Counted from the first letter of the stretch, positions 8,728-41,533 are shown. The stretch is DNA of 64,000 nucleotides from an uncultured Actinomycetota bacterium (GCA_963765815.1 CAVXXT010000008.1:90811-154810); one strand, 5' to 3'. The notes: a model not told the origin generated them from the letters alone. A program made the numbers and translations.

Positions 8728-8729
8728 CG

Positions 8730-10204: not shown

Positions 10205-10336
10205 ACGCGGCGAGTGTGAAGGGGTGAGGCATTTGTCCCCCACCAGCCACTTGCGGTGTCCGAATCGTCCGTGTTGCTTGCCCACGCAAGCGCAGATAGC
10301 GTCGACGCTGCTCGGGCGTCATCGCATCCCCCGTCG

Positions 10337-12700: not shown

Positions 12701-12716
12701 GTCCGCAGGGTATCGG

Positions 12717-13694
12717 TCAGGCCGCTACGCCTTCCGTGCTCGCGACGAGACCGGCCGTTGCGGCGCGAGTCGCGGTGCCCAGGTCCTCGCCGAGGCGGGC
12801 GAAGAACGCCGCGTTGACCCGCGACCGCCACAGCGCACCGCGCAGCACGCGCGACGCCAGCTCCGGCTGCGCCTCGGCGTACGGGACGATCGCGTTGTCC
12901 ATCCAGTCCTTGCCGTGCCGCGGGTCGACCTCGGCGTGCTCGGCGTAGAACGGGATCGCCGCCAGCGGCGAGTCGGTGCGCTCCAGGCCGGCGAGCACCT
13001 TGCGGCAGCGCGGGCCGGCCTGCAGCTCGATCAGGCCCAGCGCGCCGAGCATCTCCGGCTGCAGCCAGTGGTTGGTCGCGAGCAGGCCGCCGAGTGCGGA
13101 GCGCTCGAGAGACTCGTCCGGCTGCTCGGCGAGCGGGATGCGCGGCATGCCGACGGCGCGCACCAGGTTGTCGTGCAGTGCGGTGTGCACGGCGTCGAGC
13201 GCGCCGTTGCCCATCTCGTCCCAGTAGTTCTGCGCCAGCTCCAGCTTGGGTCGCCCGGACAGCCCGATCTGGCAGGCCGCGACCAGGTCGTCGAAGCCGC
13301 CGTCGGGCCCGCCCTCGAGGGCGAGGAAGTGCACCAGCTCGTCGTACGACGCCTCGCGGGCGACCCACTCGTAGACGCCGGGCAGCCGGTCCTTCGCCGC
13401 CAGCGCCCGCATCGCGGCGACGACGTCGTCGCCCAGCGCGCTCAGCTCGGTCGCGTCGGCGGCGTACAGCTCCTCGAGCCACTCGCTCTCGAGCCGCCAC
13501 TTCAGGTCGGCCAGCACCGGGTGCGCCGCGAGCCGCGCCTGGTCCGGCTGGCGGGCGACATCGCCGAGCAGCAGGTCGTAGAGGTGCAGCAGGGTGAGGA
13601 ACCGGTCACGCCGTCCGGCGGGCGCATCGCCGCGCAACGCGTCGACGTTGCCGGTCTGCAGCGCGAGGCCGAGGCGCTGAGAGAGGAGGTCCAT
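12717..13694 (-). CDS. Iron-containing redox enzyme family protein (heme-oxygenase-like diiron oxidase, HDO)
   Basis: About 325 aa. Helical protein with spaced E/H ligand candidates ([21 protein letters not shown]...). 16 bp upstream of arcA on the same strand. ATG 13694 with GAAGCAGG SD; the track start at 13700 is a TTG. Confidence 0.5.
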
Positions 13695-23768: not shown

Positions 23769-24955
23769 GTCATGATCTTGTGCTCAATCCACAGGAAGGG
23801 CGGGCTCAACCGGTTGTTGCAACGGGCCTCTGATGGAGAGGCTTGGTCATGGCTGGTTCTCGGATGTCGGAGCAGGATCGGGTTCGGATCGAGACGTTGT
23901 GGGCGGAGGGTCGGTCGATCCCGCACATCGCCGGGGTGATCGGCCGTCATCGGAGCACCGTCTGGCGAGAGCTGGCGGGACGGAACTCCTACCGTCACGG
24001 GCCGAAGAACCCGCAGGGTCGGCAGCGTGGTGGTGTCTACCGGTGGGGTTACGACGCGACGTGGGCCCAGGACGCGGCGTGGCGGGTGGCTCGTCGACGC
24101 CGCGCTGCGAAGCTCTCGGTCGGCACTGAGCTGCGGGAGCTCGTCGTCGGGATGCTGCGGCAGCGCTGGTCTCCGCAGCAGATCGCGGCCAGTCTTCGTC
24201 GGGACTATCCCGACCAGCCGGAGATGTGGGTGTCGCACGAGACGATCTACCGGGCGATCTACGTGCAGTCACGCGGTGGGCTGCGCGAGGAGCTGACCCG
24301 CCAGGTCGCGCTGCGCTCGGGCCGGGCGAGCCGACGCAAGCAGACCGTGCCCGGGGGCGCAGTGCGCTCGGCGAGAGCGTGGATCACACCAGACCTGCAC
24401 ATCAGCCAGCGGCCGGCCGAAGCGGCCGACCGGGCCGTGCCTGGTCATTGGGAGGGGGATCTGCTGATTGGTGCCGGTGGCCGCTCGGCGATCATCACCC
24501 TGGTCGAGCGCAGCACCCGCTACGTGATGCTCGGCAAGCTCCCCGGCGACCGAGCCAGCGAAGCGGTCATCGGCGTGCTGTCCGACCTGATCGGCCGGCT
24601 TCCGGAGCACCTGCGCCGATCGCTGGCCTGGGACTGCGGCACGGAGCTCGCTCAGCATGCGAAGTTCACGGTCGAATCAGGCTGCCCGGTCTACTTCTGC
24701 GACCCGCACAGCCCCTGGCAGCGCGGCAGCAACGAGAACACCAACGGCCTGCTCCGCCAGTACTTCCCCAAAGGCGAGGCCGACTTCCGCACCATCAGCC
24801 AGGACGAACTCGACGACGTCGCCGCCGGTCTCAACGGTCGACCCCGCATGACCCTTGACTGGAACAATCCAGCCGAGGCACTCAACGCGCTGCTCGTTGC
24901 ATCAGCCGCTTGAGACCGCCGCGTCGTTCCTGTGGATTGAGCACAAGATCATGAC
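23769..24955 (+). mobile_element. IS30-family insertion sequence, apparently intact
   Basis: 27-bp terminal inverted repeats GTCATGATCTTGTGCTCAATCCACAGG at 23769-23795 and its reverse complement at 24929-24955. They flank a single transposase ORF. Confidence 0.85.
23843..24913 (+). CDS. IS30-family transposase (DDE)
   Basis: 356 aa. N-terminal HTH, C-terminal DDE core (HWEGDLLIG...LAWDCGTEL...NENTNGLLRQYFPKG). Confidence 0.85.
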   Translation: MVMAGSRMSEQDRVRIETLWAEGRSIPHIAGVIGRHRSTVWRELAGRNSYRHGPKNPQGRQRGGVYRWGYDATWAQDAAWRVARRRRAAKLSVGTELRELVVGMLRQRWSPQQIAASLRRDYPDQPEMWVSHETIYRAIYVQSRGGLREELTRQVALRSGRASRRKQTVPGGAVRSARAWITPDLHISQRPAEAADRAVPGHWEGDLLIGAGGRSAIITLVERSTRYVMLGKLPGDRASEAVIGVLSDLIGRLPEHLRRSLAWDCGTELAQHAKFTVESGCPVYFCDPHSPWQRGSNENTNGLLRQYFPKGEADFRTISQDELDDVAAGLNGRPRMTLDWNNPAEALNALLVASAA

Positions 24956-26970: not shown

Positions 26971-27699
26971 ATGCGTCGCGCTGTCCTCTCTCTGCTCGCC
27001 GCATGCCTGCTCGCTGCGCTGCCGGCCTCCGCCGCTGACGCTCAGCCCGCGTCGGCTCGCGTGCAGGTCATCGACTTCCAGTACACGCCGTCCGCGACCA
27101 CGGTCGCGGTCGGCGGCACGGTCGAGTGGGTGTGGGAGGGCTCGAGCCAGCACTCGGTGACGGCCCGCGACGGCTCCTTCGACGAGTTGAGGGAGCGCAA
27201 CGGGCGGTTCGCCTTCGTGTTCCGCACCGCGGGCCGCTACGAGTACTTCTGCCGGATCCACCCCGACGTGATGGTGGCGGCCGTGACGGTCCAGGGCGGT
27301 ACGACGGCGCCCGCGTCGCCGACACCGGCGCCGACCACGGCGAAGCCGTCTCCGTCGCCGACGACCGCGCGTCCGAGTCCGTCCGCGTCGACGGCCTCGG
27401 CCACGCCCTCCCCGCTGCCGTCGCCGACGACGGCGGCGCCGAGCCCCAGCCCGAGCCTCTTGCCGTCGCCGTCCCGCACCCCGTCGACGTCGCCTTCGGC
27501 GAGCCCGACACGTTCGGTCGTCCCGTCGGCGGTGTCGTCGACATCGGCGCCCCTGGCGACGCTCGACGAGCCGCGGCCGAAGGACCGGACCGGTCTGGCC
27601 ATCGCGCTGGCCCTCGGCGTGGCGGCCGCCGGCTTCGGCCTCGGTGCGCTCCTGCTGCTGCAGGGACGTCCGCGCCGACTGCCCGCCGCGCCGGAGTGA
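26971..27699 (+). CDS. Blue-copper (cupredoxin/plastocyanin-like) protein with Pro/Ser/Thr-rich linker and C-terminal membrane anchor
   Basis: Signal peptide. Type-1 Cu ligands in YEYFCRIHPDVM. Long PSPT low-complexity linker. C-terminal TM helix. Confidence 0.75.
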   Translation: MRRAVLSLLAACLLAALPASAADAQPASARVQVIDFQYTPSATTVAVGGTVEWVWEGSSQHSVTARDGSFDELRERNGRFAFVFRTAGRYEYFCRIHPDVMVAAVTVQGGTTAPASPTPAPTTAKPSPSPTTARPSPSASTASATPSPLPSPTTAAPSPSPSLLPSPSRTPSTSPSASPTRSVVPSAVSSTSAPLATLDEPRPKDRTGLAIALALGVAAAGFGLGALLLLQGRPRRLPAAPE

Positions 27700-27705
27700 T
27701 CGCCG

Positions 27706-28608
27706 TCAGCTGACGGCCGGCGCGGCGGGGTCCGCCGTCCGAGAACGGCGACGGCGTACGACGACCGCGCCCACCGCGCCCAACGCGAGCACCGCCGCGA
27801 AGGGGAGCAGTGCGCCGGCGACGGTCGCCACGACGACCGCGCTCGTCGTGAACGCCGACCACCCGCCGCGCAGCCCAGTGAGGAATCCGCGCTCGCCGTC
27901 ATCGGGCACGATCGGCGTTGCGTCGTCGGCGGTGAGCAGCAGGGTGAGGGTGGCGTCCTCGACCCGGCCCTCGAGACTGCGCAGGCGGGCCTCCATCGAC
28001 TCGACCTCGGCCTCCCGGTTGGCGACCTCGCGCTCGAGGCTGACCACCTCGGCCAGGCTGCCCGCGCGGCCGAGCAGGGCGCGCACCCGGTCTGCGCTGG
28101 CCTTGGCGGTGCGGAGCCTCGCCTCGAGGTCCACGAGCTGCTCGGTCACGTCCTCCGACGTCACGGTCTGGCCGAGCGGCCTGCCGAGGCGGCCGAGCGA
28201 CGTCAGCAGGCGGGTGAACTGCGCGGGCGGGACCTTGAAGGTCAGTGAGGCGGTCGCGTCCTCGTCGAGCGAGGACTGCTGGGCCGACAGCATGCCGCCG
28301 ACGCCGGCGACCTGGGTGATCGCGCTCGAGGAGGCGGCGGTGACGTCCTCGACCTCGACGCGCACTTCTCCGACGTACGCAATGGCCCGGTCGGTCGTGG
28401 GCGGCCGACCGCGGGTCGGCGCCTTCGATGTGCCGTTGGTGGTGCCGAGCTGCTCGGCGGGTGCGCCGGCGGAGTCGGCCGCGGGGGGAGCAGCGGTGTC
28501 GGCCTTGCCGCTGGCCGCTCTCGAGTCACCGGAGTCGTCACCGCCTCCGCACGAGCTCAGCAGAACGAGAATGAGTGCGGCGGCGGCGATGCGGGCGGAC
28601 CTGCGCAT
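27706..28608 (-). CDS. DUF4349-like lipoprotein with coiled-coil and C-terminal TM
   Basis: Lipobox LLSSC. Coiled-coil (EARLRTAKASADRVRALL...EVESMEARLRSLEGRVED). C-terminal hydrophobic anchor. Confidence 0.55.
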   Translation of the reverse strand: MRRSARIAAAALILVLLSSCGGGDDSGDSRAASGKADTAAPPAADSAGAPAEQLGTTNGTSKAPTRGRPPTTDRAIAYVGEVRVEVEDVTAASSSAITQVAGVGGMLSAQQSSLDEDATASLTFKVPPAQFTRLLTSLGRLGRPLGQTVTSEDVTEQLVDLEARLRTAKASADRVRALLGRAGSLAEVVSLEREVANREAEVESMEARLRSLEGRVEDATLTLLLTADDATPIVPDDGERGFLTGLRGGWSAFTTSAVVVATVAGALLPFAAVLALGAVGAVVVRRRRSRTADPAAPAVS

Positions 28609-28778
28609 GGGATTCCCCTGACGGTCACGGAGTGCTCGTGCCGATGTGACGAAGCCGGCGACCTCACGGTTGCCTGACGGCAGGACTTTCCGGTCACGGC
28701 TCGGCGTCGATCGCGCGTCGTACCGGTGTGTTCACGTCCGTCGCGCGTCGTCCGGCGATTTTGGGGTAACCCAACGAC

Positions 28779-29051
28779 ATGGCCCTGACCCTCAGCCCCC
28801 AGAACCCGCCGGCGCTCACCCCCGACAGCCCGCTGACTCGCGTGCTCGCGTTCGTCGGCTGCGGCCTGGCCGGGTTCGTCCTGATGGGCGTGCTGAGCCT
28901 GCACATCTGGCCGTCCGTGCTGCCCTACTCGCAGTTCCTCGTCACGCAGGGCGCTGGTCTGGCCGTCGCGGTCTTCATCGCGGTCGTCTGCGGCATCGCC
29001 GGTCTCATCGCCTGTGTCGCCCGCTGCGACTCCGACGCCGACTGGGATTAG
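28779..29051 (+). CDS. Small membrane protein
   Basis: 90 aa, two TM helices. Confidence 0.35.
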   Translation: MALTLSPQNPPALTPDSPLTRVLAFVGCGLAGFVLMGVLSLHIWPSVLPYSQFLVTQGAGLAVAVFIAVVCGIAGLIACVARCDSDADWD

Positions 29052-29060
29052 TCCGGTCGA

Positions 29061-29801
29061 TCACACGATCTGGCTGAGGTAGTGGGGGAGCATCGCCCGC
29101 CAGGTCGGCCAGTTGTGCTCGTAGTCCGGACCCCAGCCCTCGACCCGGTTGGGCACGCCCTTCGCGCCGAGCACCTCCGCCACCCGCCACGACTGACCGA
29201 TGTCCTCGTAGTCGCCCTCGCCGGACGCCAGGACGACGTACCGCGAGCGCAGCGTCTCCAGGAGCTCCCCGTCCAGTCCGGGCATGAAGTCGAGGGGCGA
29301 GGAGTAGAAGAGGTCGTCGTCCCACTGACCGTCCATGAAGCGGCTGATGTCGTAGGTCCCGCTCATGCAGATGGCGTGCGTGAAGACGTCGGGGTAGCGG
29401 CACTGCACGGCGAGCGCGTTGAACGCGCCGATCGACGATCCGGTCGCGATCACGCCGATCGACTCGCTCCCGCAGTCGGTCCGGATCGCCGGCACCAGCT
29501 CGTGCCGGACGAACTCGTGGAAGCCGTTGAGCAGCCACGTGCGGTAGCGCGGGGTGCCTTCCTCGTTGACCATCGCCCGCCCGGCGACGCTGTCGCAGGA
29601 GTAGACCTTGATGCGGCCCCCCTCGACCAGCTCGCCGAGCGCGTCGACCAGGCGCATCCGCTCGATCTCCTCGGCGTCCCCGCCGGCGGTCGGGAAGACG
29701 AGCACGGGCAGCCCGAACGTCCCCCATCGCGTGACCGAGATGTCGCGCTCGATGCGCGGCGAGTACCACCGGTTGAAGCTCTTCATCGGCGTTGCTCTCA
29801 T
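29061..29801 (-). CDS. Putative esterase-family alpha/beta hydrolase (esterase D/enterochelin-esterase-like)
   Basis: GSSIGA nucleophile elbow. ATG 29801 overlaps the stop of the upstream paralog (ATGA). Confidence 0.7.
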   Translation of the reverse strand: MRATPMKSFNRWYSPRIERDISVTRWGTFGLPVLVFPTAGGDAEEIERMRLVDALGELVEGGRIKVYSCDSVAGRAMVNEEGTPRYRTWLLNGFHEFVRHELVPAIRTDCGSESIGVIATGSSIGAFNALAVQCRYPDVFTHAICMSGTYDISRFMDGQWDDDLFYSSPLDFMPGLDGELLETLRSRYVVLASGEGDYEDIGQSWRVAEVLGAKGVPNRVEGWGPDYEHNWPTWRAMLPHYLSQIV

Positions 29802-30883
29802 TCGTAGACGAGACGGTGCGGGCCCGGGAAGAGCCAGGTGAGGCCTTCCCGCAACCGGTCCCGCCAACTCTGCCAGTTGTGCCCGTCACGCGACTCGACG
29901 TACCGGACGTCCATCCCGGTCGACTGCAGCAGCGGCACCATCGAGCGGTTGGGGTAGATCAGCGGCTCGTAGATGCCGCAGCTCATGAAGACGCGGTCGG
30001 CGACCTTGTGCGGTCGGTCGCGGAACGCGTTGACGAACTTCACGACCGGGTCGAACACCGGCCCGCCGCCGTGGTCCATCCCGATGTCGGTGAAGGCGAA
30101 GGACCCGGACTGCACCAGCAGCGAGCCGAACGCCTTGGGGTGGCGGGCGGCGGTCGACAGGGACGCGACGCCGCCGAAGCTCGACCCCATCACGCACCGG
30201 CCGGCGGGTGTGCCGATGAGCGGGAAGAGCCGCTCCATCTCCGGCACCAGCTCGCTCGTCACGAACCTGGCATGCCCGGCGTGGTTGGCGTACTCCCTGA
30301 GCCGATCGCCGGGGTCGATCAGCGCGACGACGACCGGCGCCATCTCGTTGCGGTGGATGAGGTTGTCGAGCACGGTGCCGAGCGACGCGTAGTTGAGGTA
30401 GTCGGTGCCGTCGTGGACGACGAGCAGCGGGTACGACGCCGCGCGCCGGAAGCGGGCGGGGAGGTAGACCTTCACCACGGCGTCTCGCTTGAGCGCCTTG
30501 CTCGGCACGACTACCTGCTCGAGCAGCCCCGGCCTGCTGTCGGGGTGGTGCTCGGCCCATGACGGCGGCTCGTAGCCCGCCGCGTGGCAGACGGAGTTGC
30601 TCCCCACGGGGTTCTGCGCGCGCAGGGGGTTCAGCGGGTCGTCGATGAGCTCGCCGTGTCCGCCCCGGACGACGTCGTACTTGTACTCCATGCGCGACGT
30701 CTCGGGCAGGTCGATGACGACGTACCAGAGGTCGGTGCCGTGGATGCGGCGCAGCGGCTGGTCGCCGGGCAGACCGTAGACGCTGTGCTTGAGCCAGACG
30801 GAGTCGGCCTCACCGCGGAAGAGGAAGGTGCATCGGGTGCCTTCGACGACCGGCACCGGGTGGGTGGCGAGGAACTCGTCCAC
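29798..30883 (-). CDS. Putative esterase-family alpha/beta hydrolase with N-terminal Ig-like domain (enterochelin-esterase-like architecture)
   Basis: 361 aa. N-terminal beta-sandwich region followed by the esterase domain (GSSFGG elbow). Confidence 0.7.
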   Translation of the reverse strand: MDEFLATHPVPVVEGTRCTFLFRGEADSVWLKHSVYGLPGDQPLRRIHGTDLWYVVIDLPETSRMEYKYDVVRGGHGELIDDPLNPLRAQNPVGSNSVCHAAGYEPPSWAEHHPDSRPGLLEQVVVPSKALKRDAVVKVYLPARFRRAASYPLLVVHDGTDYLNYASLGTVLDNLIHRNEMAPVVVALIDPGDRLREYANHAGHARFVTSELVPEMERLFPLIGTPAGRCVMGSSFGGVASLSTAARHPKAFGSLLVQSGSFAFTDIGMDHGGGPVFDPVVKFVNAFRDRPHKVADRVFMSCGIYEPLIYPNRSMVPLLQSTGMDVRYVESRDGHNWQSWRDRLREGLTWLFPGPHRLVYE

Positions 30884-30957
30884 CGCGGCGTGGTCGAGGT
30901 CGCGACGCTCCTTGAGCCGGTTGATCGCCAGCTTGGCGCCGCGACCCGAGGTGTCGC

Positions 30958-31923
30958 TCAGGCTGCCTCACCGCCCCGGGTCGTGAGCGCGCGGCCGTCC
31001 GGCCGGATCAGCCGCGCGCCGTCGAGGGTGACGTGCCCTCCATGAGCTGGGTCGCCGTCGACGACCGCGCGGGTGCCCTCGTCCAGAGCGAGGCACTTCA
31101 ACGGCGCGAACCGCCTTGCGAGGATCGCCATCCGGTCGCGGTCCTGCAGGTGCAGTCGATGCTGCGCGTCCGGCAGTGGGAGCACGCCGCGGCAGAGGCC
31201 GATCCCGGCGTCGAAGAGCTCGGCGTGCGCGGCGCCCTGCGGCGCCCGGTCGTGGAAGAGCACGATCCGCTCGGAGATCGCCATCGCGCCGGCGGACCAG
31301 GCGACGACCGGCCGGTCGCCGAGCGCCGCCCCCACGTTGAACATGTGCAGGCAGGCCTGCAGCACGCCGACGTGCCCGCCTGCAATCGCCAGGGATCCGG
31401 CGCGGCCGAGCAGCGCGGCCACCTCGTCACGATGAGCGGCGACGCCGGCCCGGGTGTGCGGCGGCCAGCGGTCGTAGAACTCGCCGTAGACCTCGCGGGT
31501 GACGCTGAAGTGGTGCTCGTCGAGAGCTCTGACCCCGTCGATGGCGTCAGCGAGCTCGGTGGCGTGGACCTCCGCGTGGCCGCCCCGGCGCTGGACGGCG
31601 TACGCCGCCTCCATCGCGTGGTCGAGTCGCAGCTGGTAGATCTCCTGCATCTCCTGGAGCACCGAGTCCCGCAGGCGGACGGCCTCGTGGTACTCCGGGT
31701 CGTGGTGCAGCACGTCGACCCATCGGCGGAACAGCTGCAGGTTGATCGTCGCGCCGCCGACGGCTGACTCCAGCACGGCGGAGTCGAGGTCGGCGTCTTC
31801 GGTCTCACGCTCTTCCCACCCCGCGGTGACGGTGGCGATCGGCCCGGGGATGTCGAGCGCGGCCAGGGTCTGGGGCAGGTTGGGCCGCGGCCCCTGCGGG
31901 CCGAGCAGGATGACTGTGCTCAT
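30958..31923 (-). CDS. Peptidase S51-like / type-1 glutamine-amidotransferase-like protein (cyanophycinase/dipeptidase E fold)
   Basis: 321 aa. Candidate nucleophile in VVAWSAGAMAIS. Assigned by pattern resemblance only. Confidence 0.45.
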   Translation of the reverse strand: MSTVILLGPQGPRPNLPQTLAALDIPGPIATVTAGWEERETEDADLDSAVLESAVGGATINLQLFRRWVDVLHHDPEYHEAVRLRDSVLQEMQEIYQLRLDHAMEAAYAVQRRGGHAEVHATELADAIDGVRALDEHHFSVTREVYGEFYDRWPPHTRAGVAAHRDEVAALLGRAGSLAIAGGHVGVLQACLHMFNVGAALGDRPVVAWSAGAMAISERIVLFHDRAPQGAAHAELFDAGIGLCRGVLPLPDAQHRLHLQDRDRMAILARRFAPLKCLALDEGTRAVVDGDPAHGGHVTLDGARLIRPDGRALTTRGGEAA

Positions 31924-31959
31924 CGAGCGCGGGACGACGCTGGCATCAGGTCTGCTTGC

Positions 31960-33183
31960 TCACCGGGCGTGCACGCCGACCGAGCGCCCGATCGCGTCGA
32001 GGATGCGGTGGCACTCGTCGAAGTCGGGGTGCTTCACCCGCACCCAGGCGTTGGCCATGTAGCCGGCCTCGACCGGCTGTGTCCCCGTGCCGACCGGCGG
32101 CAGGTGCGCGTCGATGATCCAGTCGCCGTACGCGCGCTGGACCTGATCGACGCCGATGTAGCCGGCGATGGTGCCGTCGCGGTCCGGGCGCAGCGCGACG
32201 ATGCCGGCGGAGTACTGCCGCGACGGCCGCTGCCCGACCTGGCCGTGCACGATCGCGTTGGCCCACTCGCGGTAGAGGTCGAAGTCGTTGGCGATGGAGT
32301 AGAGGTCCCACGCGCCGACGCCGGGCGGGCGGGCGCCGATCTCGGAGAACTTCAGGCCCTTCGGGCCGTAGAACCACTCCATGTGCGCGGCCGACGTGCC
32401 GATGCCGAGCGCCTGGATGACCCGCCGGCCCATCTCGCGAACCTCGTCGTACGCCGAGCTCGTGTCGATCTGGTTGGTGCAGATGAACTCCGGCGTCACG
32501 TTGCGCGTGCGCATCGCGTCGAGGACGTTCGGGTAGTAGTGCGACGCGAAGTCGAGCACCGGCTCACCGTCGACGCAGAGCGTGTCGTAGAAGCCCTCAT
32601 GGCCCTCGATGAACTCCTCGACGGCGATGCTCTCGGCGCCGCTCGCGCCGAGCTCGCCCAGGGCCGCGGCGAGCTGGCTCGGGTCGTCGGCGCGCACCGT
32701 GCCGGACGCGCCGGCTCCGCTGCGCGGCTTGAGGATGAGCGGGAAGCCGACCGCCTCGGCGAAGGCGTGCACCTCGGCCGCCGTCGACGCGGCGGTGCTC
32801 TGCGCGCACGGCACTCCGGCGTCGCGCAGCACCTCCTTCATCGTCGGCTTGTCGCGGCAGAGGTACGCCGTGCGCACGCTGGTGCCGGGGATGCCGCAGT
32901 CCTCGCGCACCTGCGCGGTGGTCATGATGTGCGCCTCGATCGTGGCTTCCAGCCGGTCGACCCAGAGCTGGCTCTGCACGTAGCGGACCGTCTTGGTCAG
33001 CCAGTCGACGTTGGTCACCGAGCCGCACTGCTCGTAGTGGTCGAGCCAGCCCTTGAGCTCGTCGTCGAGCCAGTCGGCGGGACGCTCGCCGATGCCGATC
33101 ACCGTGGCGCCCACCTCGTGCAGGGCGCGCGCGAAGTGCCGCTGCGTGGCGGGGAAAGCCGGCTCGACCAAGATCACATTCAC
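31960..33183 (-). CDS. ATP-grasp ligase, paralog A
   Basis: 407 aa from GTG 33183. Pre-ATP-grasp N-domain plus ATP-grasp core. Shared motif HMEWF...EIGARPPG. Confidence 0.75.
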   Translation of the reverse strand: MNVILVEPAFPATQRHFARALHEVGATVIGIGERPADWLDDELKGWLDHYEQCGSVTNVDWLTKTVRYVQSQLWVDRLEATIEAHIMTTAQVREDCGIPGTSVRTAYLCRDKPTMKEVLRDAGVPCAQSTAASTAAEVHAFAEAVGFPLILKPRSGAGASGTVRADDPSQLAAALGELGASGAESIAVEEFIEGHEGFYDTLCVDGEPVLDFASHYYPNVLDAMRTRNVTPEFICTNQIDTSSAYDEVREMGRRVIQALGIGTSAAHMEWFYGPKGLKFSEIGARPPGVGAWDLYSIANDFDLYREWANAIVHGQVGQRPSRQYSAGIVALRPDRDGTIAGYIGVDQVQRAYGDWIIDAHLPPVGTGTQPVEAGYMANAWVRVKHPDFDECHRILDAIGRSVGVHAR

Positions 33184-33262
33184 GACTGCCGATCCTACCC
33201 ACGCGCGCGCACCGGCGAACCGGCCCGCACGCCTGCGCGTGACCGGGCTAGCCTCACGCCCC

Positions 33263-34489
33263 GTGACCGCTGTCGTGTTCGTCGCGCCGTTCCTCATGGA
33301 CGCGACGCTGCGCTTCGTCGCGGCGGCCGCCGAGCTGCCCGGCGTCGAGCTCGGACTGATCAGCCAGGACCCGGAGGACCGGATCCCGCCCGGCCTGCGG
33401 TCGCGCATCGCGGCTCACTACCGCGTGGCCGACGGCCTCGACCCGCAGCAGCTCGCCGATGCGACCAGGGCGCTGGCTGCGCGGATCGGGCCACCGGCTC
33501 GACTGGTCGGCGCGCTCGAGCAGCTGCAGGTGCCGCTCGCAGAGGTGCGGGAGGCGCTGGGCATCTCGGGCATGGACGTCGCGACGGCGATGAACTTCCG
33601 GGACAAGGCGCGGATGAAGACCGTGCTGCGCGCGCACGGCCTCCCCTGCGCGCGGCACGCCACCGCTGGTACGCCGGCCGACGTGGAGGGCTTCCTCGAC
33701 CAGGTCGGCTTCCCGATCGTGGTGAAGCCGCTCGCCGGTGCCGGGGCGCGGTCGACGTACCGGCTCAACGATGTCGAGGCGACCAGGGGCTGGCTGCACG
33801 CGCAGCCGCCCTCTCCCGACGACCCCGTGCTGCTCGAGGAGTTCATGACGGGCGAGGAGCACTCGTTCGACAGCGTGTTCCTCAACGGCGAGCCGGTGTT
33901 CCACTCGGTCTCGCGGTACGCGCCGGCGCCGCTCGAGGTGCTGCGCAACCCGTGGATGCAGTGGGTGGTGCTGCTGCCACGCGACATCAGCGGACCCGAG
34001 TACGACGACATCCGACTGGTCGCGGCGGCGTCGCTGCGCGCGCTCGGGCTGCGCACCGGGCTGACCCACATGGAGTGGTTCCGGCGTCCGGACGGCTCGG
34101 TCGCCGTGTCCGAGGTCGCGGCCCGTCCGCCGGGCGCGCAGATCACCACGCTGCTGTCCTACGCGCACGACGTCGACTTCTACTCGGCCTGGGCGGCGCT
34201 GATGTCGCTCGACCACTTCGTGCCACCGGAGCGGAAATACGCCGTCGGCGCGGCGTACCTCCGTGGTCAGGGGCGGGGCCGGGTGCAGGCGGTGCACGGC
34301 CTCGAGCAGCTGCAGCAGGAGCTCGGCCACCTCGTCGTCGAGGCCAAGCTGCCGGAGATCGGCCAGTCGCCGACCGGCACCTACGAGGGCGAGGGCTACG
34401 TGATCGTCCGCGACCCGGACACCGCCGTCGTCGAGCGAGCGCTGCACCGGATCGTCTCGGTCGCGCACATCGAGCTCGGCGAGGGGTAG
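33263..34489 (+). CDS. ATP-grasp ligase, paralog B
   Basis: GTG 33263. Same architecture and motifs (HMEWFRRPDGSVAVSEVAARPPGA). Confidence 0.75.
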   Translation: MTAVVFVAPFLMDATLRFVAAAAELPGVELGLISQDPEDRIPPGLRSRIAAHYRVADGLDPQQLADATRALAARIGPPARLVGALEQLQVPLAEVREALGISGMDVATAMNFRDKARMKTVLRAHGLPCARHATAGTPADVEGFLDQVGFPIVVKPLAGAGARSTYRLNDVEATRGWLHAQPPSPDDPVLLEEFMTGEEHSFDSVFLNGEPVFHSVSRYAPAPLEVLRNPWMQWVVLLPRDISGPEYDDIRLVAAASLRALGLRTGLTHMEWFRRPDGSVAVSEVAARPPGAQITTLLSYAHDVDFYSAWAALMSLDHFVPPERKYAVGAAYLRGQGRGRVQAVHGLEQLQQELGHLVVEAKLPEIGQSPTGTYEGEGYVIVRDPDTAVVERALHRIVSVAHIELGEG

Positions 34490-34498
34490 GGCGCTGCT

Positions 34499-35716
34499 GT
34501 GAACGTGCTGCTGATCGCGCCCGGCTACCCCGCGGAGATGCCGTTCTTCACCCGCGGTCTCGCGCGGACCGGCGTGCGCGTGATCGGGCTGGGCGACCAG
34601 CCCGTCTCGGCGCTGCCGGAGATGGCGCGCGAGCACCTGGCGCACTACCTCCAGGTCGGCTCGTTCGCCGACGAGGACGGCATCGTCGCCGAGGTGCTGC
34701 GGCAGGCGAGCTGGCTGCAGATCGCCCAGGTGGAGTGCCTCTGGGAGCCGATGATGGTGCTCGCCGCGCGGCTGCGCGAGGCGCTCGGGCTGCCTGGCAT
34801 GACCGTCGCGCAGACGATCCCGTTTCGCGACAAGGAGGTGATGAAGCAGGTCCTCGACGAGGCCGGGATCCGCACGCCGCGGCACTTCTCGACGACTTCC
34901 GGGGACGGCATCCGGCAGGCCGCCGAGGCGATCGGCTATCCCATCATCGTGAAGCCGATCGCCGGCGCGGGATCCGCCAACACCCACCGGGTCGAGTCGC
35001 GCGCCGAGCTCGAAGCGGTCATCCCTCAGCTGCGTCGCGTCGCGGAGGTGAGCGTCGAGGAGTTCATCGACGCTGAGGAGTTCACCTTCGACACGATCTG
35101 CGCCAACGGCGAGGTCCTCTACTACAACATCTGCTGGTACCGGCCGCGCCCACTCGTCGCCCGGCAGCTCGAGTGGGTCAGCCCGATGACCATCGCGCTG
35201 CGCGACCCCGACGTCGACCACCTCGCGGGTGGCCGCGAGATGGGCTGGCGGGTGCTGCAGGCGATGGGGTTCCGCGACGGCTTCACGCACATGGAGTGGT
35301 ACCGCAAGGCCGACGGCGAGGTCGTGTTCGGCGAGATCGGCGCGCGGCCGCCCGGGGCGCGCACGGTCGACGTCATGAACTTCACCGTCGACGACGACCT
35401 CTACTTCGGCTGGGCCAACGCGGTCGTGCACGGGTCGCTGCCGCATCCGGTGCAGAGGCGCTACAACGCCGCGTCGATCTTCAAGCGCGCGTCCGGGCAG
35501 GGCCGCATCCAGCACATCGAGGGACTCGGCCGGCTCATGTCCGAGTACGGCGAGCACGTGGTCGCCCTCGACCTGCTGCCGCTCGGCGCACCGCGGCGGG
35601 ACTGGCTGCAGACGCTGATCTCCGACGGCATGGTCGTCGTACGCCATCCGGAGCTGGCCGCGACGCTGGAGATCGCCGACCGCTTCGCCGGCGAGCTGCA
35701 GCTCTACGCGGGCTGA
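34499..35716 (+). CDS. ATP-grasp ligase, paralog C
   Basis: GTG 34499, 405 aa (HMEWYRKADGEVVFGEIGARPPGA). Confidence 0.75.
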   Translation: MNVLLIAPGYPAEMPFFTRGLARTGVRVIGLGDQPVSALPEMAREHLAHYLQVGSFADEDGIVAEVLRQASWLQIAQVECLWEPMMVLAARLREALGLPGMTVAQTIPFRDKEVMKQVLDEAGIRTPRHFSTTSGDGIRQAAEAIGYPIIVKPIAGAGSANTHRVESRAELEAVIPQLRRVAEVSVEEFIDAEEFTFDTICANGEVLYYNICWYRPRPLVARQLEWVSPMTIALRDPDVDHLAGGREMGWRVLQAMGFRDGFTHMEWYRKADGEVVFGEIGARPPGARTVDVMNFTVDDDLYFGWANAVVHGSLPHPVQRRYNAASIFKRASGQGRIQHIEGLGRLMSEYGEHVVALDLLPLGAPRRDWLQTLISDGMVVVRHPELAATLEIADRFAGELQLYAG

Positions 35717-35782
35717 CGCCACCCCGCCGCGGGCAGGTGTCGGCGTACCGGAGCAGGGAAGCCTTCCTCGCGGAGGTGGGTC

Positions 35783-36451
35783 ATGCGGAGGGTGCTGCGC
35801 GAGAACAGCCTGTCGCTCGTCCTGTTCTTCCTCTTCTTCACCTTCTTCTTCGTCGGGCAGTCCGTCGCAGGGCACCGCGAGTACAACGCGGAGCAGCGCG
35901 AGCACCGGGAGCCGACGGTCTCCTACTCGGCGTACCTGCACACCGCGCACTTCGGCGAGGCGACGTTCGAGAACTGGGAGAGCGAGTTCCTCCAGATGGG
36001 CGCGTACGTCCTGCTCACCGCGTTCCTGCACCAGAGGGGTTCGGCCGAGTCGAAGAAGCTGGACGAGGAGGAGCCGGTCGACGAGGACCCGCGGTCCGCG
36101 CCGATCAAGAAGGACACGCCGTGGCCGGTGCGGGCGGGCGGGCTGGTGCTGATGGTCTACGAGCACTCGCTGACGATCGCCCTGTTCGGGGTGTTCGCCG
36201 CCTCGATGCTCCTGCACGCCATGACGGGGGCGAGGGAGTACAGCGCTGAGGAGGCGGTGCACGGCGGAGCCGCGGTGGGGACCTGGCAGTACCTGCACAC
36301 GAGCCGGTTCTGGTTCGAGTCGCTGCAGAACTGGCAGAGCGAGTTCCTCGCCGTCTTCGCCATCGTCGTGTTGTCGATCTGGCTGCGGGAGAAGGGCTCG
36401 CCGGAGTCCAAGCCGGTGGCGGCGCCGCACTCGATGACGGGATCGGGCTGA
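35783..36451 (+). CDS. Membrane protein with internal tandem duplication
   Basis: 222 aa. Two repeats of the pattern REY(N/S)AE...ENWESEFL(Q/A)...hydrophobic helix. Confidence 0.5.
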   Translation: MRRVLRENSLSLVLFFLFFTFFFVGQSVAGHREYNAEQREHREPTVSYSAYLHTAHFGEATFENWESEFLQMGAYVLLTAFLHQRGSAESKKLDEEEPVDEDPRSAPIKKDTPWPVRAGGLVLMVYEHSLTIALFGVFAASMLLHAMTGAREYSAEEAVHGGAAVGTWQYLHTSRFWFESLQNWQSEFLAVFAIVVLSIWLREKGSPESKPVAAPHSMTGSG

Positions 36452-36597
36452 GCAGCCGGCCCTACGCCGTTCGGCGCAATTCGGGACATACCAACTGCTT
36501 CTGCCGGTGTGGTGTTCGGGTCTAGATGCCCCTCGCGCGTCGCGGGACGATTTCCCGGCAGCCTCGCCCCCAGACCGAGGCCGCAGGGGAGTGCTCC

Positions 36598-36789
36598 ATG
36601 CGCGGAATGGGCAGTAAGTACGACTACGACGCCCTCTCGTACCAGGCGGACGAGTCCAAGGACGCCGACACCTACTTCGCCGCCACCCCGTGCCGCGCCG
36701 TGCTTCATGCCGAGACGGTGAAGTCCCGCGCCACCCTCCTCCCGGAGAAGCCGACCGGCCTGCTGCGCAAGGCTCTCCGCCGCGCCTGA
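36598..36789 (+). CDS. Small hypothetical protein
   Basis: 63 aa. AGGGGAG SD 7 nt upstream of ATG. GC3-biased codons. Confidence 0.4.
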   Translation: MRGMGSKYDYDALSYQADESKDADTYFAATPCRAVLHAETVKSRATLLPEKPTGLLRKALRRA

Positions 36790-36874
36790 CGGACCGCGCC
36801 TGGCGCAATCCGCGACATCCGGGCGCTCCTCGCCGTACCGTGGCTGGACAGGCATACGTCGCAGCGCAGCGGAT

Positions 36875-37111
36875 ATGAGGTCGGTCGTGGGCAAGCGGAC
36901 GAGCAACCGGACCAGCGCCTTCGTGGTCGACTACGACAAGACCGAGGGCGCGCGCGAGCGGGAGAAGAACCCGCCGCCGAAGCCCAAGCCGCAGATCGAC
37001 TTCTACGTCGACACTCCCCACCGCTCGCGCCTCGTCGCCGCCGAGGCGGCGGAAGCGGCTGCGGTCGGCCCGGTGCGCCGCGCTCTTCGCGCGCTGCTGC
37101 ACCGCACGTAG
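36875..37111 (+). CDS. Small hypothetical protein
   Basis: 78 aa, GC3-biased, Pro/Lys-rich middle. Confidence 0.3.
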   Translation: MRSVVGKRTSNRTSAFVVDYDKTEGAREREKNPPPKPKPQIDFYVDTPHRSRLVAAEAAEAAAVGPVRRALRALLHRT

Positions 37112-37148
37112 CGATCGCTACGGCACCGGCGCGGGTGGCTCCGCCGGA

Positions 37149-39602
<2,454 letters not shown>

Positions 39603-39659
39603 GACGCGACACTCTAGGCGCGCTCGTATGCCGCCGGAGGCGACCGCCGATCGCGCGGA

Positions 39660-40934
39660 TCAGTCCTGGGGGTTGTTGGTGTAGGTGATGCCGAGGGGGC
39701 TGGTCCAGGTGACGGTGCCGTCTCTGGCTCTGATGACGTTCCAGCCGCCGTGGGTCTTGAGGCGGTGGTGTCTGCGGCACATGGGGGCGCAGTTGTGCTC
39801 GTCGGTGGGTCCGCCTTGGTCCCAGGGGATGGCGTGCTCGGTGTCGCATCTCTCGGCGGGTTGGTCGCAGTGCGGGAAGGTGCAGGTCTCGTCGCGGGCG
39901 GCGATGTGGTCGTCGAGGCGGCGGGTGGGGCGGTAGGCGGTGGTGCCGAGGCCGAGGAAGGTCTCGTCGGCGCTGTCGACGAGGAACGCGGTCCACTCGT
40001 TGTCGGCGGCGATGTCGCGGGCGGCTGAGGCGGGGATGGGGCCGTAGCCGCCGAGCTCGGCGGGGTCGTCGGCGAGGCCGCGGGCGGCCTGCGGGGTCAT
40101 CTTGATGAAGATCTGCGCGGGCCGACGCTTGCGGGTGGGGTTGCCGGGCTGTGCGAGGCCGAGGGTGGCCATGACGAGCAGGGCGTCGAAGCGCTTCTGC
40201 TCGAGGGTGCGGCCGTCGTCGTCCATGCGGCGGGCGAGGGTGTCGCAGGCCAGCGCGATGGTGGCGATGTCGGCGGCCGGGCCGTAGGCGTAGAGGGCGG
40301 CCATGCCGTCCTCGCGCGGGTAGGTCTCGATGTGCCGGTCGGTCTTGGCCTTGGTGTGCCGCTTCTCGAAGCCGTCCGGGTCGACTTTCGCGGCAGCGGT
40401 GGCGACCTTCTTCGCGAACTGCTTGGGGGTGACGTTCATCGCCTTGCCCAGCAGCTCGGCCTCGACCTGACGGGCCTGGGTGACGGTCAGCTCGCTGGTG
40501 CCGGCGGCGAGGTGCGCGGCGTGCTCGTAGGAGATCTTCCCGGCCAGCATCGCCGCGCGGGTGGCTTGGAGCCGGCTCTCGAACGCGCGGGCGGTGGTGA
40601 CCATCCGCTCGGCGTGATAGCCGCTGATCGTCAGCGCGCAGGAGATCTCCTCGCGGGCGGAGTCGATGCCGGACGCGGTGTCGCCGCAGCGCCTCGCGAT
40701 GGCGGCGACCAGGTCGAGCATGTGGGCGTCGTTGCGGGCCCGGTGCTCGGCGAGGGTCTGCAAAGCCTCGACCTGCTCGACCTCGCCCATCCGGCCGATC
40801 GGGATCGCGGCGACGGTGTCGGCGACCGCGCCGTCGGGGGTCATCGGCGACAGGGCGTTCAGCACGACCAGCGGCGGGGTCGCGCTGCGCGCGAACGCCT
40901 GGGCCGCTGGGCTTCTGAACCCAGTATCGAACAT
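39660..40934 (-). CDS. HNH endonuclease, DUF222 family
   Basis: DUF222-like N-terminal region. C-terminal HNH (CTFPHCDQPAERCDTEHAIPWDQGGPTDEHNCAPMCRRHHRLK). ATG 40934. Locally lower GC at the 5' end. Confidence 0.75.
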   Translation of the reverse strand: MFDTGFRSPAAQAFARSATPPLVVLNALSPMTPDGAVADTVAAIPIGRMGEVEQVEALQTLAEHRARNDAHMLDLVAAIARRCGDTASGIDSAREEISCALTISGYHAERMVTTARAFESRLQATRAAMLAGKISYEHAAHLAAGTSELTVTQARQVEAELLGKAMNVTPKQFAKKVATAAAKVDPDGFEKRHTKAKTDRHIETYPREDGMAALYAYGPAADIATIALACDTLARRMDDDGRTLEQKRFDALLVMATLGLAQPGNPTRKRRPAQIFIKMTPQAARGLADDPAELGGYGPIPASAARDIAADNEWTAFLVDSADETFLGLGTTAYRPTRRLDDHIAARDETCTFPHCDQPAERCDTEHAIPWDQGGPTDEHNCAPMCRRHHRLKTHGGWNVIRARDGTVTWTSPLGITYTNNPQD

Positions 40935-41044
40935 GCTTTCGATTGTGCACCTGCATCGTCTGGCGCGCAAGGGGTCTGGGGCCAATTTCTCGGCGGAATC
41001 AGACGAAGCGACAGGCGACTCGTGCGTCGTCATACGGTTGCGGG

Positions 41045-41533
41045 GTGAGCGCACTGGATCGTCTTGTCGAGAACGCGGCGACGTACCCCGAGCGGTACCT
41101 CGCCGACCGTCCCGTGCAGCCCCGCCTGCACGTCGCGGTCGTCGCGTGCATGGACTCGCGGATGCCGCTGTTCGGCATGCTCGGCCTCGAGATCGGCGAC
41201 GCGCACATCATCCGCAACGCCGGCGGCTCGGTGACCGACGACATCCTGCGGTCGCTGGTGATCAGCCAGCGTCGGCTCGGCACCCGCGAGGTGATGCTCG
41301 TGCATCACACCAACTGCGGGATGCAGACGATCACCGACGAGAGCTTCAAGGACGAGATCGAGGCGGACACCGGTGTCCGACCGGACTGGCCGATCCGCGC
41401 GTTCGACAACCTCGACGCCGACGTACGCGACTCGATCCAGCGCGTTCGCGACTGCCCGTTCCTGCTCTACCGCGACGTCGTCCGCGGCTTCGTCTTCGAC
41501 GTGCACACCGGCGTGCTGCGCGAAGTCACCTGA
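41045..41533 (+). CDS. Beta-class carbonic anhydrase
   Basis: CMDSR...HTNCG zinc-ligand motifs. GTG 41045. Confidence 0.8.
   Translation: MSALDRLVENAATYPERYLADRPVQPRLHVAVVACMDSRMPLFGMLGLEIGDAHIIRNAGGSVTDDILRSLVISQRRLGTREVMLVHHTNCGMQTITDESFKDEIEADTGVRPDWPIRAFDNLDADVRDSIQRVRDCPFLLYRDVVRGFVFDVHTGVLREVT

What the first reader, a model, noticed from the sequence alone, without database searches (positions are those of the whole stretch)
29061..36451. Three paralogous ATP-grasp ligases clustered with an S51-peptidase-like gene and two coupled esterases
Three about 405-aa ATP-grasp proteins (31960-33183 minus strand, 33263-34489 and 34499-35716 plus strand) share the pre-ATP-grasp/ATP-grasp layout and the motif HMEWF...EIGARPPG. 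They are clearly paralogs and sit back-to-back and head-to-tail within 3.8 kb. Immediately adjacent are an S51-like (cyanophycinase/dipeptidase-E fold) gene, two enterochelin-esterase/esterase-D-like hydrolases joined by an ATGA overlap, and an internally duplicated membrane protein. Stand-alone ATP-grasp enzymes of this size include the L-amino-acid ligases that assemble small peptides without NRPS. A triad of them beside a peptide-cleaving S51 fold and ester/amide hydrolases looks like a self-contained system that makes and trims a small peptide, polyamide or amino-acid conjugate. I cannot match it to a described pathway.
Basis: partly seen in the sequence, partly recalled or inferred. Interest (0 to 1): 0.78.

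Follow-up and report, generated by a model that had tools for sequence, protein, structure and literature searches.

The report
Conserved ATP-grasp ligase and hydrolase cassette
Three related ATP-dependent amino-acid ligases sit beside three hydrolases in a gene block found in at least 592 genome contigs species genomes from about eight phyla, many from soil; it often lies among glycogen genes and probably makes and recycles an unknown intracellular peptide-like compound.

Summary
Window 29061-35716 holds estS, estL, an S51-fold protein and ATP-grasp gA on the minus strand, and gB-gC on the plus strand. The three ligases are about 33% identical paralogs. Their nearest solved relatives are L-amino-acid ligases, and they fall below every curated NCBIfam cut-off. 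All three keep the ATP-grasp motifs.

The gene set recurs in Actinomycetota, Dormibacterota, Acidobacteriota, Planctomycetota, Eisenbacteria, Gemmatimonadota, Chloroflexota and one gammaproteobacterium, at 45-72% identity between three of these phyla. It survives rearrangement, splitting into two operons, and fusion of the S51 and estL genes.

Further members are a cryptic fourth ATP-grasp (gD, on another contig here), GCS2 ligases, an M20 dipeptidase, and bona fide glgA/glgB interleaved with the cassette. The DUF6766 membrane gene and the M1 peptidase are not conserved neighbours.

This genome's S51-like protein keeps the invariant Ser, but Asp replaces the triad His.

No paper describing the cassette was found. 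My best reading (confidence about 0.4) is a non-ribosomal make-and-break cycle for a cytoplasmic peptide oligomer or polymer, coordinated with glycogen. The product is unknown.

The parts
29061..29801 (-). estS: short alpha/beta hydrolase (246 aa) of the PF00756 'putative esterase' family. Its start overlaps the estL stop (ATGA).
   Evidence: Pfam PF00756 at E 1.8e-11. The ATGA overlap is read directly. The GxSxG serine and a C-terminal His are at least 90% conserved in 57 homologs. 60-62% identical to the Dormibacterota and Eisenbacteria orthologs.
29798..30883 (-). estL: Fes/CE1-like alpha/beta hydrolase (361 aa) with an N-terminal E-set (CBM48-like) domain.
   Evidence: PF00756 at E 1.3e-22 and a weak Enterochelin_N hit. 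Best PDB matches are enterochelin esterase 2b20 (4e-16), then CE1 feruloyl esterases carrying CBM48. GSSFG serine, Glu and DGHxW are conserved. The N-domain aligns in register with GlgB CBM48 by hhalign, P 0.012. Fused to the S51-like domain in at least 30 protein clusters.
30958..31923 (-). S51-fold serine-hydrolase-like protein (321 aa) with a helical-hairpin insertion of about 90 aa (residues 64-152). Ser210 is invariant. The canonical His position (252) is Asp here.
   Evidence: AF2 pLDDT 90.8. The top 19 Foldseek hits are all S51 peptidases. Column counts: Ser210 36/36, His252 23/36 (Asp in 7, including the window), acid at 281 in 32/36.
31960..33183 (-). gA: stand-alone ATP-grasp ligase (407 aa), L-amino-acid-ligase-like. 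It is the paralog that travels with the hydrolase genes.
   Evidence: Pfam ATP-grasp families. KP, EEF, HMEWF and SEIGxRPPG are at least 95% conserved in 57 orthologs. 63-65% identical across phyla. Found as gA-S51-estL-estS without gB/gC in genome G170.
33184..33262 (.). 79-bp divergent intergenic region between gA and gB. Presumed to hold a bidirectional promoter.
   Evidence: Read directly. No Rfam match at E up to 1. The promoter function is inferred only.
33263..34489 (+). gB: ATP-grasp ligase paralog (408 aa).
   Evidence: Pfam ATP-grasp_4 over its cut-off, with ATP-grasp and a weak LAL_C2 hit. KP, HxEWF and SEVxxRPPGAQ are conserved in 71 orthologs. Lies upstream of gC in nearly all of the 77 loci where it was found.
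34499..35716 (+). gC: ATP-grasp ligase paralog (405 aa), the most conserved member.
   Evidence: Pfam hits, with a weak ATPgrasp_N hit. Best PDB matches are the L-amino-acid ligases 4wd3 (8e-17) and 3vot (2e-14). Orthologs are 67-92% identical in many phyla.

Best explanation
The window carries one form of a widespread, modular cassette that builds a cytoplasmic amino-acid-derived oligomer or polymer and takes it apart again, without ribosome or NRPS.

Synthesis. gA, gB and gC are stand-alone ATP-grasp carboxylate-amine ligases of the L-amino-acid-ligase type. Each would activate a carboxylate as an acyl-phosphate and join it to an amine, or possibly a hydroxyl, so each would make a different bond of the product. 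A fourth ATP-grasp (gD, RimK/LysX/ArgX-like) and a GCS2 ligase are encoded on another contig of this genome. In other phyla they sit inside the cassette, and they probably add further bonds.

Breakdown. The S51-fold protein and the two Fes/CE1-like alpha/beta hydrolases depolymerise or trim the product. S51-like and estL are one fused polypeptide in many genomes.

Role. The whole is a make-and-break cycle for a reserve or stress-protection compound, coordinated with glycogen synthesis, because glgA and glgB are interleaved with it in other phyla.

Shown: the gene set, its conservation through rearrangement and fusion, intact catalytic motifs, the folds, and the glycogen linkage. Inferred: the substrates (probably acidic, Asp/Glu-type, because characterised S51 enzymes act on aspartyl substrates), the product, the role of the hydrolases, and the physiology.
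For: Ligases. The three paralogs are LAL-like and each keeps the ATP/Mg/acyl-phosphate motifs across 57-83 orthologs.

Conservation.
- All six genes occur together in 46 of 80 loci, drawn from at least 592 hits in the species-representative genome collection, spanning about eight phyla.
- Identity between the window, a Dormibacterota locus and an Eisenbacteria locus is 45-72%.
- Where gB-gC stand alone, gA and estL lie elsewhere in the same genome in 4 of 5 cases.
- A third gene order, gA | gB-gC-(S51::estL)-gD-estS, also exists.

Hydrolases.
- At least 30 clusters of S51::estL fusion proteins were found.
- The nucleophile Ser and the His are conserved in both esterases.
- Ser210 of the S51-like protein is invariant.
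- In 400 sampled Actinomycetota genomes the S51-like family was found in 3, and 2 of these are the genomes that carry the triad.

Compartment. No transporter, tailoring enzyme or signal peptide is present in the cassette, and intergenic gaps are 9-79 bp. This points to an intracellular product with no precursor-peptide gene (read directly from the sequence).

Glycogen link.
- Bona fide glgA lies between gA and gB in 9-10 loci.
- glgB lies directly after gC in 10 loci from several phyla.
- A Gemmatimonadota locus reads GlgP | cassette | GlgB-GlgA-GH57.

Other members. An M20 dipeptidase follows gC in about 15 actinobacterial loci. gD has an ATP-grasp fold and lies between estS and estL in many loci.
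Against: - No product or substrate is known, and nothing here shows a polymer rather than a small peptide.
- The S51-like protein lacks the canonical His in 13 of 36 family members, including this genome's copy. It may not be a hydrolase everywhere.
- Two always-present 'esterases' are not obviously needed for a pure polyamide.
- This genome also carries a canonical cyanophycin synthetase/cyanophycinase locus. A second Asp-based reserve would therefore be partly redundant.
- gD occurs in 46 of 400 sampled Actinomycetota, far more than the triad. It has a life of its own.
- In Actinomycetota, including this window, no glycogen gene is adjacent.
Confidence: 0.4

Rival explanations
1. Decoration of alpha-glucan. 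The ligases attach amino acids or short peptides to glycogen or another alpha-glucan made by the linked GlgA/GlgB, as esters or through a linker. The CBM48-like esterase and the S51-like protein remove these groups.
For: - glgA and glgB are interleaved with the cassette in several phyla, and in more than one arrangement.
- GH13 genes lie nearby in two further genomes.
- estL's nearest solved relatives after Fes are CE1 carbohydrate esterases with CBM48.
- Its N-domain aligns weakly but in register with GlgB CBM48, P 0.012.
- From established knowledge: ATP-grasp enzymes can form esters (VanA, graspetide ligases), and PF00756 includes sugar acyl-transferases (Ag85).
Against: - The actinobacterial and Dormibacterota cassettes, including this window, have no adjacent glucan gene.
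- This genome has no GT5 GlgA above the cut-off.
- The CBM48 similarity is marginal.
- No aminoacylated glycogen is known.
Confidence: 0.15
2. A glutathione-like low-molecular-weight peptide cycle. GCS2 makes a gamma-glutamyl dipeptide and gD acts as a glutathione-synthetase analogue. gA, gB and gC extend or diversify the peptide. The PF00756 hydrolases act as (thio)esterases, and S51 and M20 as the degrading peptidases.
For: - The GCS2 next to gD scores 580 bits against an NCBIfam glutamate-cysteine ligase equivalog with a cut-off of 409.
- The GCS2-gD pairing is seen in Dormibacterota and, with M20 between them, in this genome.
- The Atlas lists 'glutathione synthase family' clusters among gD's neighbours.
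- From established knowledge: PF00756 contains S-formylglutathione hydrolase, and M20 dipeptidases degrade Cys-Gly.
Against: - gD's structural neighbours are ArgX/LysX/RimK and Ddl, not glutathione synthetase.
- estL matches the S-formylglutathione hydrolase model only at E 0.009.
- GCS2 is next to the cassette in only about 16 of 80 loci.
- The gA-S51-estL-estS module exists without a GCS2 beside it.
Confidence: 0.12
3. Reversible post-translational modification. The ATP-grasp enzymes add amino acids to a protein or carrier, as RimK, LysX/ArgX or tubulin-ligase-type enzymes do. The hydrolases act as erasers.
For: gD is closest in fold to ArgX/LysX/RimK, which ligate onto protein C-termini. 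The very slow evolution of the ligases, 60-72% identity between phyla, would fit a macromolecular substrate.
Against: - gA, gB and gC are LAL-like, not RimK-like: rimK_fam scores 30-41 bits against a cut-off of 143.
- No conserved small carrier or target gene lies in the cassette, and intergenic gaps in the window are at most 79 bp.
- Esterases are not known erasers of such modifications.
Confidence: 0.1
4. A biosynthetic cluster for a secreted bioactive di- or oligopeptide, like bacilysin, rhizocticin or tabtoxin. The hydrolases would serve maturation or self-protection.
For: The nearest characterised relatives of the ligases are LALs, some of which come from such clusters, e.g. BacD and RizA.
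Against: - The cassette has no exporter, no warhead-biosynthesis or tailoring genes, and no regulator.
- The same gene set is held at 45-72% identity across about eight phyla, mostly clustering by phylum. That is unlike fast-diversifying antibiotic clusters.
- It is linked to glycogen genes.
Confidence: 0.08

Closest known systems
Cyanophycin system (CphA1 synthetase plus CphB/CphE S51 cyanophycinase)
   Same: ATP-grasp chemistry builds a non-ribosomal polyamide reserve, and an S51 serine peptidase degrades it. Both are cytoplasmic, and the synthesis and breakdown genes are adjacent.
   Different: - CphA1 is one protein of about 870 aa with N, ATP-grasp and Mur-ligase-like domains. Here there are three or four separate 405-aa ATP-grasp proteins and no Mur-like domain; scores are 30-39 bits against a cut-off of 850.
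- The S51-like protein is very divergent, carries a helical insertion, and often lacks the His.
- Two alpha/beta hydrolases are added.
- This genome also has a separate canonical cphA locus.
Stand-alone L-amino-acid ligases (RizA 4wd3, BL00235 3vot, BacD, LdmS)
   Same: Same size, the same three-domain ATP-grasp layout, and the best sequence matches in PDB, at E 8e-17 to 3e-5.
   Different: - The similarity is low, and no curated model is reached.
- Known LALs occur singly, in antibiotic clusters or in amino-acid metabolism.
- They do not occur as a conserved triad with dedicated hydrolases and glycogen genes.
Ligase/hydrolase pairs for small peptides: glutathionylspermidine synthetase/amidase, the NAGGN osmolyte genes (Ngg plus peptidase), carnosine synthase plus M20 CNDP dipeptidase (from established knowledge)
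   Same: An ATP-grasp ligase is paired with a hydrolase for the same amide, which gives a regulated pool. An M20 dipeptidase follows gC in many loci.
   Different: No sequence-level membership was found. Here there are up to five ligases and three or four hydrolases, and the hydrolase families differ (S51-like, Fes/CE1-like).
Enterochelin esterase Fes and CE1 carbohydrate esterases with CBM48
   Same: estL shares the E-set N-domain plus PF00756 catalytic-domain architecture, and these are its best PDB hits.
   Different: estL scores 114 bits against a cut-off of 222 for the enterochelin esterase model. No siderophore or xylan genes are nearby. In many genomes it is fused to an S51-like domain.

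Membership tests
ATP-grasp superfamily (gA, gB, gC) | ATP-grasp domain with the phosphate-binding Lys, the hinge acidic pair, the Mg-binding acidic residues and the catalytic Arg | tested here: met
   Pfam ATP-grasp families are at or above their cut-offs in all three. KP, EEF, H(M)EW and E(I/V)xxRPPG are invariant among the paralogs. They are at least 95% conserved within each ortholog set.
L-amino-acid ligases (BacD/RizA/BL00235 type) | Sequence membership in a curated LAL model | tested here: not met
   The BacD equivalog scores 28-32 bits against a cut-off of 850. PRK07206 scores 55-59 against 302. LAL_C2 and ATPgrasp_N fall below their Pfam cut-offs. LALs are nonetheless the best PDB relatives.
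L-amino-acid ligases (BacD/RizA/BL00235 type) | ATP-dependent formation of a dipeptide from free L-amino acids | not testable with these tools
   Needs an enzyme assay.
Cyanophycin synthetase | ATP-grasp G domain plus Mur-ligase-like M domain in one protein of about 870 aa | tested here: not met
   The proteins are 405-408 aa. TIGR02068 scores 30-39 bits against a cut-off of 850 and covers only the ATP-grasp core. The genuine cphA lies elsewhere in the genome.
RimK / LysX / D-Ala-D-Ala ligase / PurT / PurK | Score above the curated family cut-off | tested here: not met
   rimK_fam scores 30-41 against 143. LysX scores 29-36 against 276. Ddl scores 31-39 against 243. purT scores 25-33 against 502. 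purK scores 28 against 318.
Peptidase S51 | S51 fold | tested here: met
   The AF2 model (pLDDT 90.8) matches PepE, cyanophycinase, pseudo-CphB and 6nqc as its top 19 Foldseek hits. The Eisenbacteria ortholog passes PF03575 at 28.1 bits against a cut-off of 23.9. The window protein itself does not.
Peptidase S51 | Ser-His-Glu/Asp catalytic triad | tested here: not met
   Ser210 (AWSAGAM) is invariant. The 'xPH' His, mapped by motif to two canonical S51 genes of the same genome, is Asp in the window protein and His in only 23 of 36 homologs. The acid at 281 is D/E in 32 of 36. The mapping is by motif, not by superposition.
PF00756 esterase / enterochelin esterase | Pfam domain over its cut-off with the Ser-acid-His residues; for Fes, the curated equivalog score | tested here: inconclusive
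   PF00756 scores 81 bits (estL) and 45 bits (estS) against a cut-off of 22, with the GxSxG Ser and the His conserved. The enterochelin esterase equivalog scores 114 bits against a cut-off of 222, so estL is not a Fes ortholog.
Graspetide (RiPP) ATP-grasp maturases | An adjacent precursor-peptide gene | tested here: not met
   Intergenic gaps inside the window cassette are 9-79 bp. No conserved small ORF was found among the neighbours.

The most novel reading that the evidence does not exclude
The cassette encodes the synthesis and mobilisation of an undescribed bacterial reserve material. This would be either a new non-ribosomal poly(amino acid), or poly(depsi)peptide, assembled by a team of stand-alone ATP-grasp ligases, or a peptide-decorated alpha-glucan made together with the interleaved GlgA/GlgB. 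It would be a counterpart to cyanophycin that is spread through soil Actinomycetota, Dormibacterota, Acidobacteriota, Planctomycetota and Eisenbacteria.
Probability: 0.25. Interest if true: 0.85.

Novelty: new variant of a known kind. Interest (0 to 1): 0.62.

Why it matters
Very few intracellular reserve or protective polymers, and few non-ribosomal peptide pools, are known in bacteria. Examples are glycogen, PHA, polyphosphate, cyanophycin, glutathione-type thiols and NAGGN.

Here is a gene set with up to five ligases and three or four hydrolases. It is held nearly unchanged across about eight phyla that dominate soils and cold deserts, and it is repeatedly wired into the glycogen genes. That marks a piece of core stress or storage physiology in largely uncultured lineages that has no assigned product.

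The cassette offers a directly testable entry point, because cultured carriers and soluble stand-alone enzymes exist. It also offers a source of new peptide-bond-forming biocatalysts.

If the product proves to be an ordinary dipeptide, the finding reduces to a new LAL subfamily.

Tried and rejected
- Complex prediction on gA plus the S51-like protein, both given as alignments, returned no verdict: score 0.00 and controls not run. I draw no conclusion from it.
- The look-up of sequencing runs listed no RNA holder. It listed only three runs (two soil metagenomes, one with no organism given), each holding 5-6% of the words.
- The Rfam scan of 27000-40000 found no riboswitch or leader.
- An HMM of the S51-like family against PDB sequences found no S51 entry. 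The relationship is visible only by fold and through one ortholog's Pfam hit.
- Seven literature searches found no description of the cassette. The most relevant comparative paper (Iyer et al. 2009, Mol Biosyst, amidoligases) is not held, so a prediction there cannot be excluded.
- A Frankia desiccome paper lists an S51 dipeptidase E as induced (PMC5768760). I could not link it to this cassette.
- The look-up of the Pseudonocardia gC failed.
- P0129, an apparent gA-S51 fusion, aligns to only part of gA. It may be a frameshifted call, so I did not use it.
- DUF6766, the M1 aminopeptidase, DUF4349 and the 93-aa ORF at 28770-29051 were tested as cassette members and rejected, because none had a homolog in the 80 loci.
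- A graspetide/RiPP reading was rejected for lack of any room for a precursor gene.

Full report
WHAT IS IN THE WINDOW

The window is 70-75% G+C. Frames with GC3 of 0.90-0.96 define a compact block.
- estS, 29061-29801, minus strand.
- estL, 29798-30883, minus strand.
- A 321-aa protein (P0001), 30958-31923, minus strand.
- ATP-grasp gA, 31960-33183, minus strand.
- A 79-bp divergent spacer.
- gB, 33263-34489, and gC, 34499-35716, both plus strand.

The estL stop and the estS start share ATGA at 29798-29801. The three ATP-grasp proteins are 33% identical to one another. They share about 70 invariant positions, including FRDK, KP, EEF, HMEW and E(I/V)xARPPG. Inside the genome they find each other at E 8e-66 and 8e-55 and find nothing else comparable.

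WHAT THE PARTS ARE

Ligases. Pfam sees only generic ATP-grasp domains, with weak ATPgrasp_N and LAL_C2 hits. Every curated NCBIfam model is missed by a wide margin: cyanophycin synthetase, RimK, LysX, Ddl/Van, PurT/PurK, BacD and biotin carboxylases. The best solved relatives are the L-amino-acid ligases 4wd3, 3vot and 30vh, at E 8e-17 to 1e-10. Within each ortholog set of 57-83 sequences the nucleotide, Mg and catalytic-Arg motifs are at least 95% conserved. All three are therefore probably active ligases.

Esterases. estL is a PF00756 hydrolase. It is closest to enterochelin esterase (2b20, 4e-16), then to CE1 feruloyl esterases that carry an N-terminal CBM48. Its own N-domain aligns weakly but in register with the CBM48 of GlgB (hhalign P 0.012). 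estS is a shorter PF00756 member. Both keep the GxSxG serine and a C-terminal His in at least 90% of homologs.

S51-like protein. P0001 has no sequence-level family. Its AF2 model (pLDDT 90.8) hits only S51 peptidases at the top of Foldseek. It carries a helical hairpin inserted at residues 64-152.
- Ser210 (AWSAGAM) is invariant.
- The canonical 'xPH' histidine was located by comparison with two ordinary S51 genes of the same genome. It is His in 23 of 36 homologs and Asp in this genome.
- The acidic residue at 281 is present in 32 of 36.

By inspection, none of the six proteins has an N-terminal signal or membrane segment.

CONSERVATION

gC has thousands of relatives. The best 120 are 67-92% identical and come from Mycobacteriales, Frankia, Streptosporangiaceae, Dormibacterota, Eisenbacteria and others.

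In the 80 best loci the order estS-(gD)-estL-S51-gA | gB-gC recurs. All six genes are present in 46 of them, and most of the rest are short contigs. The taxa are Actinomycetota, Dormibacterota, Acidobacteriota, Planctomycetota, Eisenbacteria, Gemmatimonadota, Chloroflexota (Limnocylindria) and one gammaproteobacterium.

Orthologs in a Dormibacterota locus and an Eisenbacteria locus are 45-72% identical to the window's proteins. A gC tree mostly groups by phylum, with a few cross-phylum placements. This points to an old, slowly evolving cassette that has been patchily kept or occasionally transferred.

The cassette is rare. It was found in 2 of 400 sampled Actinomycetota genomes.

MODULARITY

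- Where a locus has only gB-gC, gA and estL lie together elsewhere in the same genome in 4 of 5 cases.
- A 100%-complete genome of the same class (G170) has only gA-S51-estL-estS.
- Two large genomes have gA | gB-gC-(S51::estL)-gD-estS.
- At least 30 protein clusters of about 700-770 aa fuse the S51-like domain to estL. One example was verified domain by domain.
- In the 400-genome sample the S51-like family was found in 3 genomes, and 2 of these are the triad carriers.

Further members:
- gD is a 415-aa protein with no Pfam family. AF2 and Foldseek place it with ArgX/LysX/RimK and Ddl, and it has an extra C-terminal helical domain. It lies between estS and estL in many loci. In this genome it is on contig C5, beside a GCS2 ligase and an M20 amidohydrolase, between thyX and dapA.
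- gD alone is much commoner than the triad, in 46 of 400 sampled Actinomycetota. That tally includes the unpublished genomes G053, G006, G125 and G093, and nothing else in this report rests on them.
- GCS2 or GCS2-CBS genes adjoin about 16 loci.
- A PRK07907-type M20 dipeptidase follows gC in about 15 actinobacterial loci.

GLYCOGEN LINK

- In Eisenbacteria, Acidobacteriota, Planctomycetota and Acidimicrobiia a genuine ADP-glucose glycogen synthase lies between gA and gB. It scores 538 bits on TIGR02095 against a cut-off of 328.
- In 10 loci a genuine branching enzyme follows gC, scoring 973 bits against a cut-off of 741.
- A Gemmatimonadota locus reads GlgP | cassette | GlgB-GlgA-GH57.
- GH13 genes lie nearby in two more genomes.
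- The window itself has no such neighbour, and this genome has no GT5 GlgA above the cut-off.

WHAT DOES NOT BELONG

It, the M1 aminopeptidase and DUF4349 have no counterparts near the cassette elsewhere. The window cassette is flanked at a distance by an IS30-type transposase and a DUF222-HNH gene.

INTERPRETATION

Several observations point to an intracellular non-ribosomal product that is both made and broken down.
- There are several competent carboxylate-amine ligases.
- Three hydrolase-type proteins co-inherit with them and in part fuse with one another.
- There is no exporter, tailoring enzyme or precursor gene.
- The cassette is repeatedly embedded in glycogen genes.

The product would be part of storage or stress physiology. 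All characterised S51 enzymes act on aspartyl substrates (established knowledge), so an acidic component is a reasonable guess. I cannot tell an oligomer from a polymer, nor amide bonds from ester bonds.

The rivals are peptide decoration of alpha-glucan, a glutathione-like peptide cycle built on GCS2 and gD, reversible protein modification, and a secreted antibiotic peptide. They are weighed in their own sections. The last is the least likely, given the conservation pattern and the gene content.

The missing His in this genome's S51-like protein and the coexisting canonical cyanophycin locus both caution against a simple 'second cyanophycin' reading.

NOVELTY

Seven full-text searches found no description of this cassette. 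The 2009 amidoligase survey could not be read. The enzyme families are known, but the conserved combination and its product are not.

Noticed in passing
window 35783-36451 (+): A DUF6766 membrane protein (E 1e-93). Its two halves are clearly duplicated, with GxREY...W(E/Q)SEFL...G(S)xESK repeated. It is not conserved next to the cassette elsewhere.
   Followed up: partly
window 23834-24913 (+) and 39660-41207 (-): An IS30-type transposase (HTH_38 plus rve) lies about 4 kb from one end of the cassette. A DUF222-HNH endonuclease gene lies about 4 kb from the other end. These are possible traces of mobility.
   Followed up: no
L011 (G000 contig C5:146000-164000), 5760-9477: A second locus of the same genome holds GCS2 ligase (+), M20 amidohydrolase (+) and the cryptic ATP-grasp gD (-), inserted between thyX and dapA-rnj-ftsK.
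   Followed up: partly
G000 contig C1:357792-362524 (L093, L095): A canonical cyanophycin locus. An S51 cyanophycinase-like gene is followed by a cphA match that is split between two reading frames near C1:359380 (model positions 3-264 and 266-860). This could be a frameshift, a pseudogene or an assembly error. A second partial CphA-like gene lies on the opposite strand.
   Followed up: partly
L098 (G170 C1:2377000-2396000), 8627-12744: A complete genome of the same class carries gA-S51-estL-estS as one operon, with no gB or gC anywhere in the genome. One ligase with three hydrolases can therefore stand alone.
   Followed up: partly
P0126-P0162; L100 9001-11247; L101 9001-11232: Natural fusion proteins of about 700-770 aa join the S51-like domain to estL. 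They sit in operons ordered gB-gC-fusion-gD-estS.
   Followed up: yes
window 28770-29051 (+): A 93-aa ORF with GC3 of 0.94, just beyond the 3' end of estS. It has no Pfam family and no homolog in the 80 related loci.
   Followed up: partly
one search matches in G270, G244, G296, G128, G023: The gD matches in five sampled genomes each contain one in-frame stop (TGA or TAG). This could be sequencing error, decay or recoding.
   Followed up: no
L097 9797-9910 (+): A 37-aa ORF is called between gB and gC in a Planctomycetaceae genome. I did not check whether it is conserved.
   Followed up: no
window 37149-39602 (-): An M1-family aminopeptidase (Peptidase_M1 plus ERAP1_C) lies two genes downstream of gC. 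It is a tempting partner but is not conserved next to the cassette elsewhere.
   Followed up: yes
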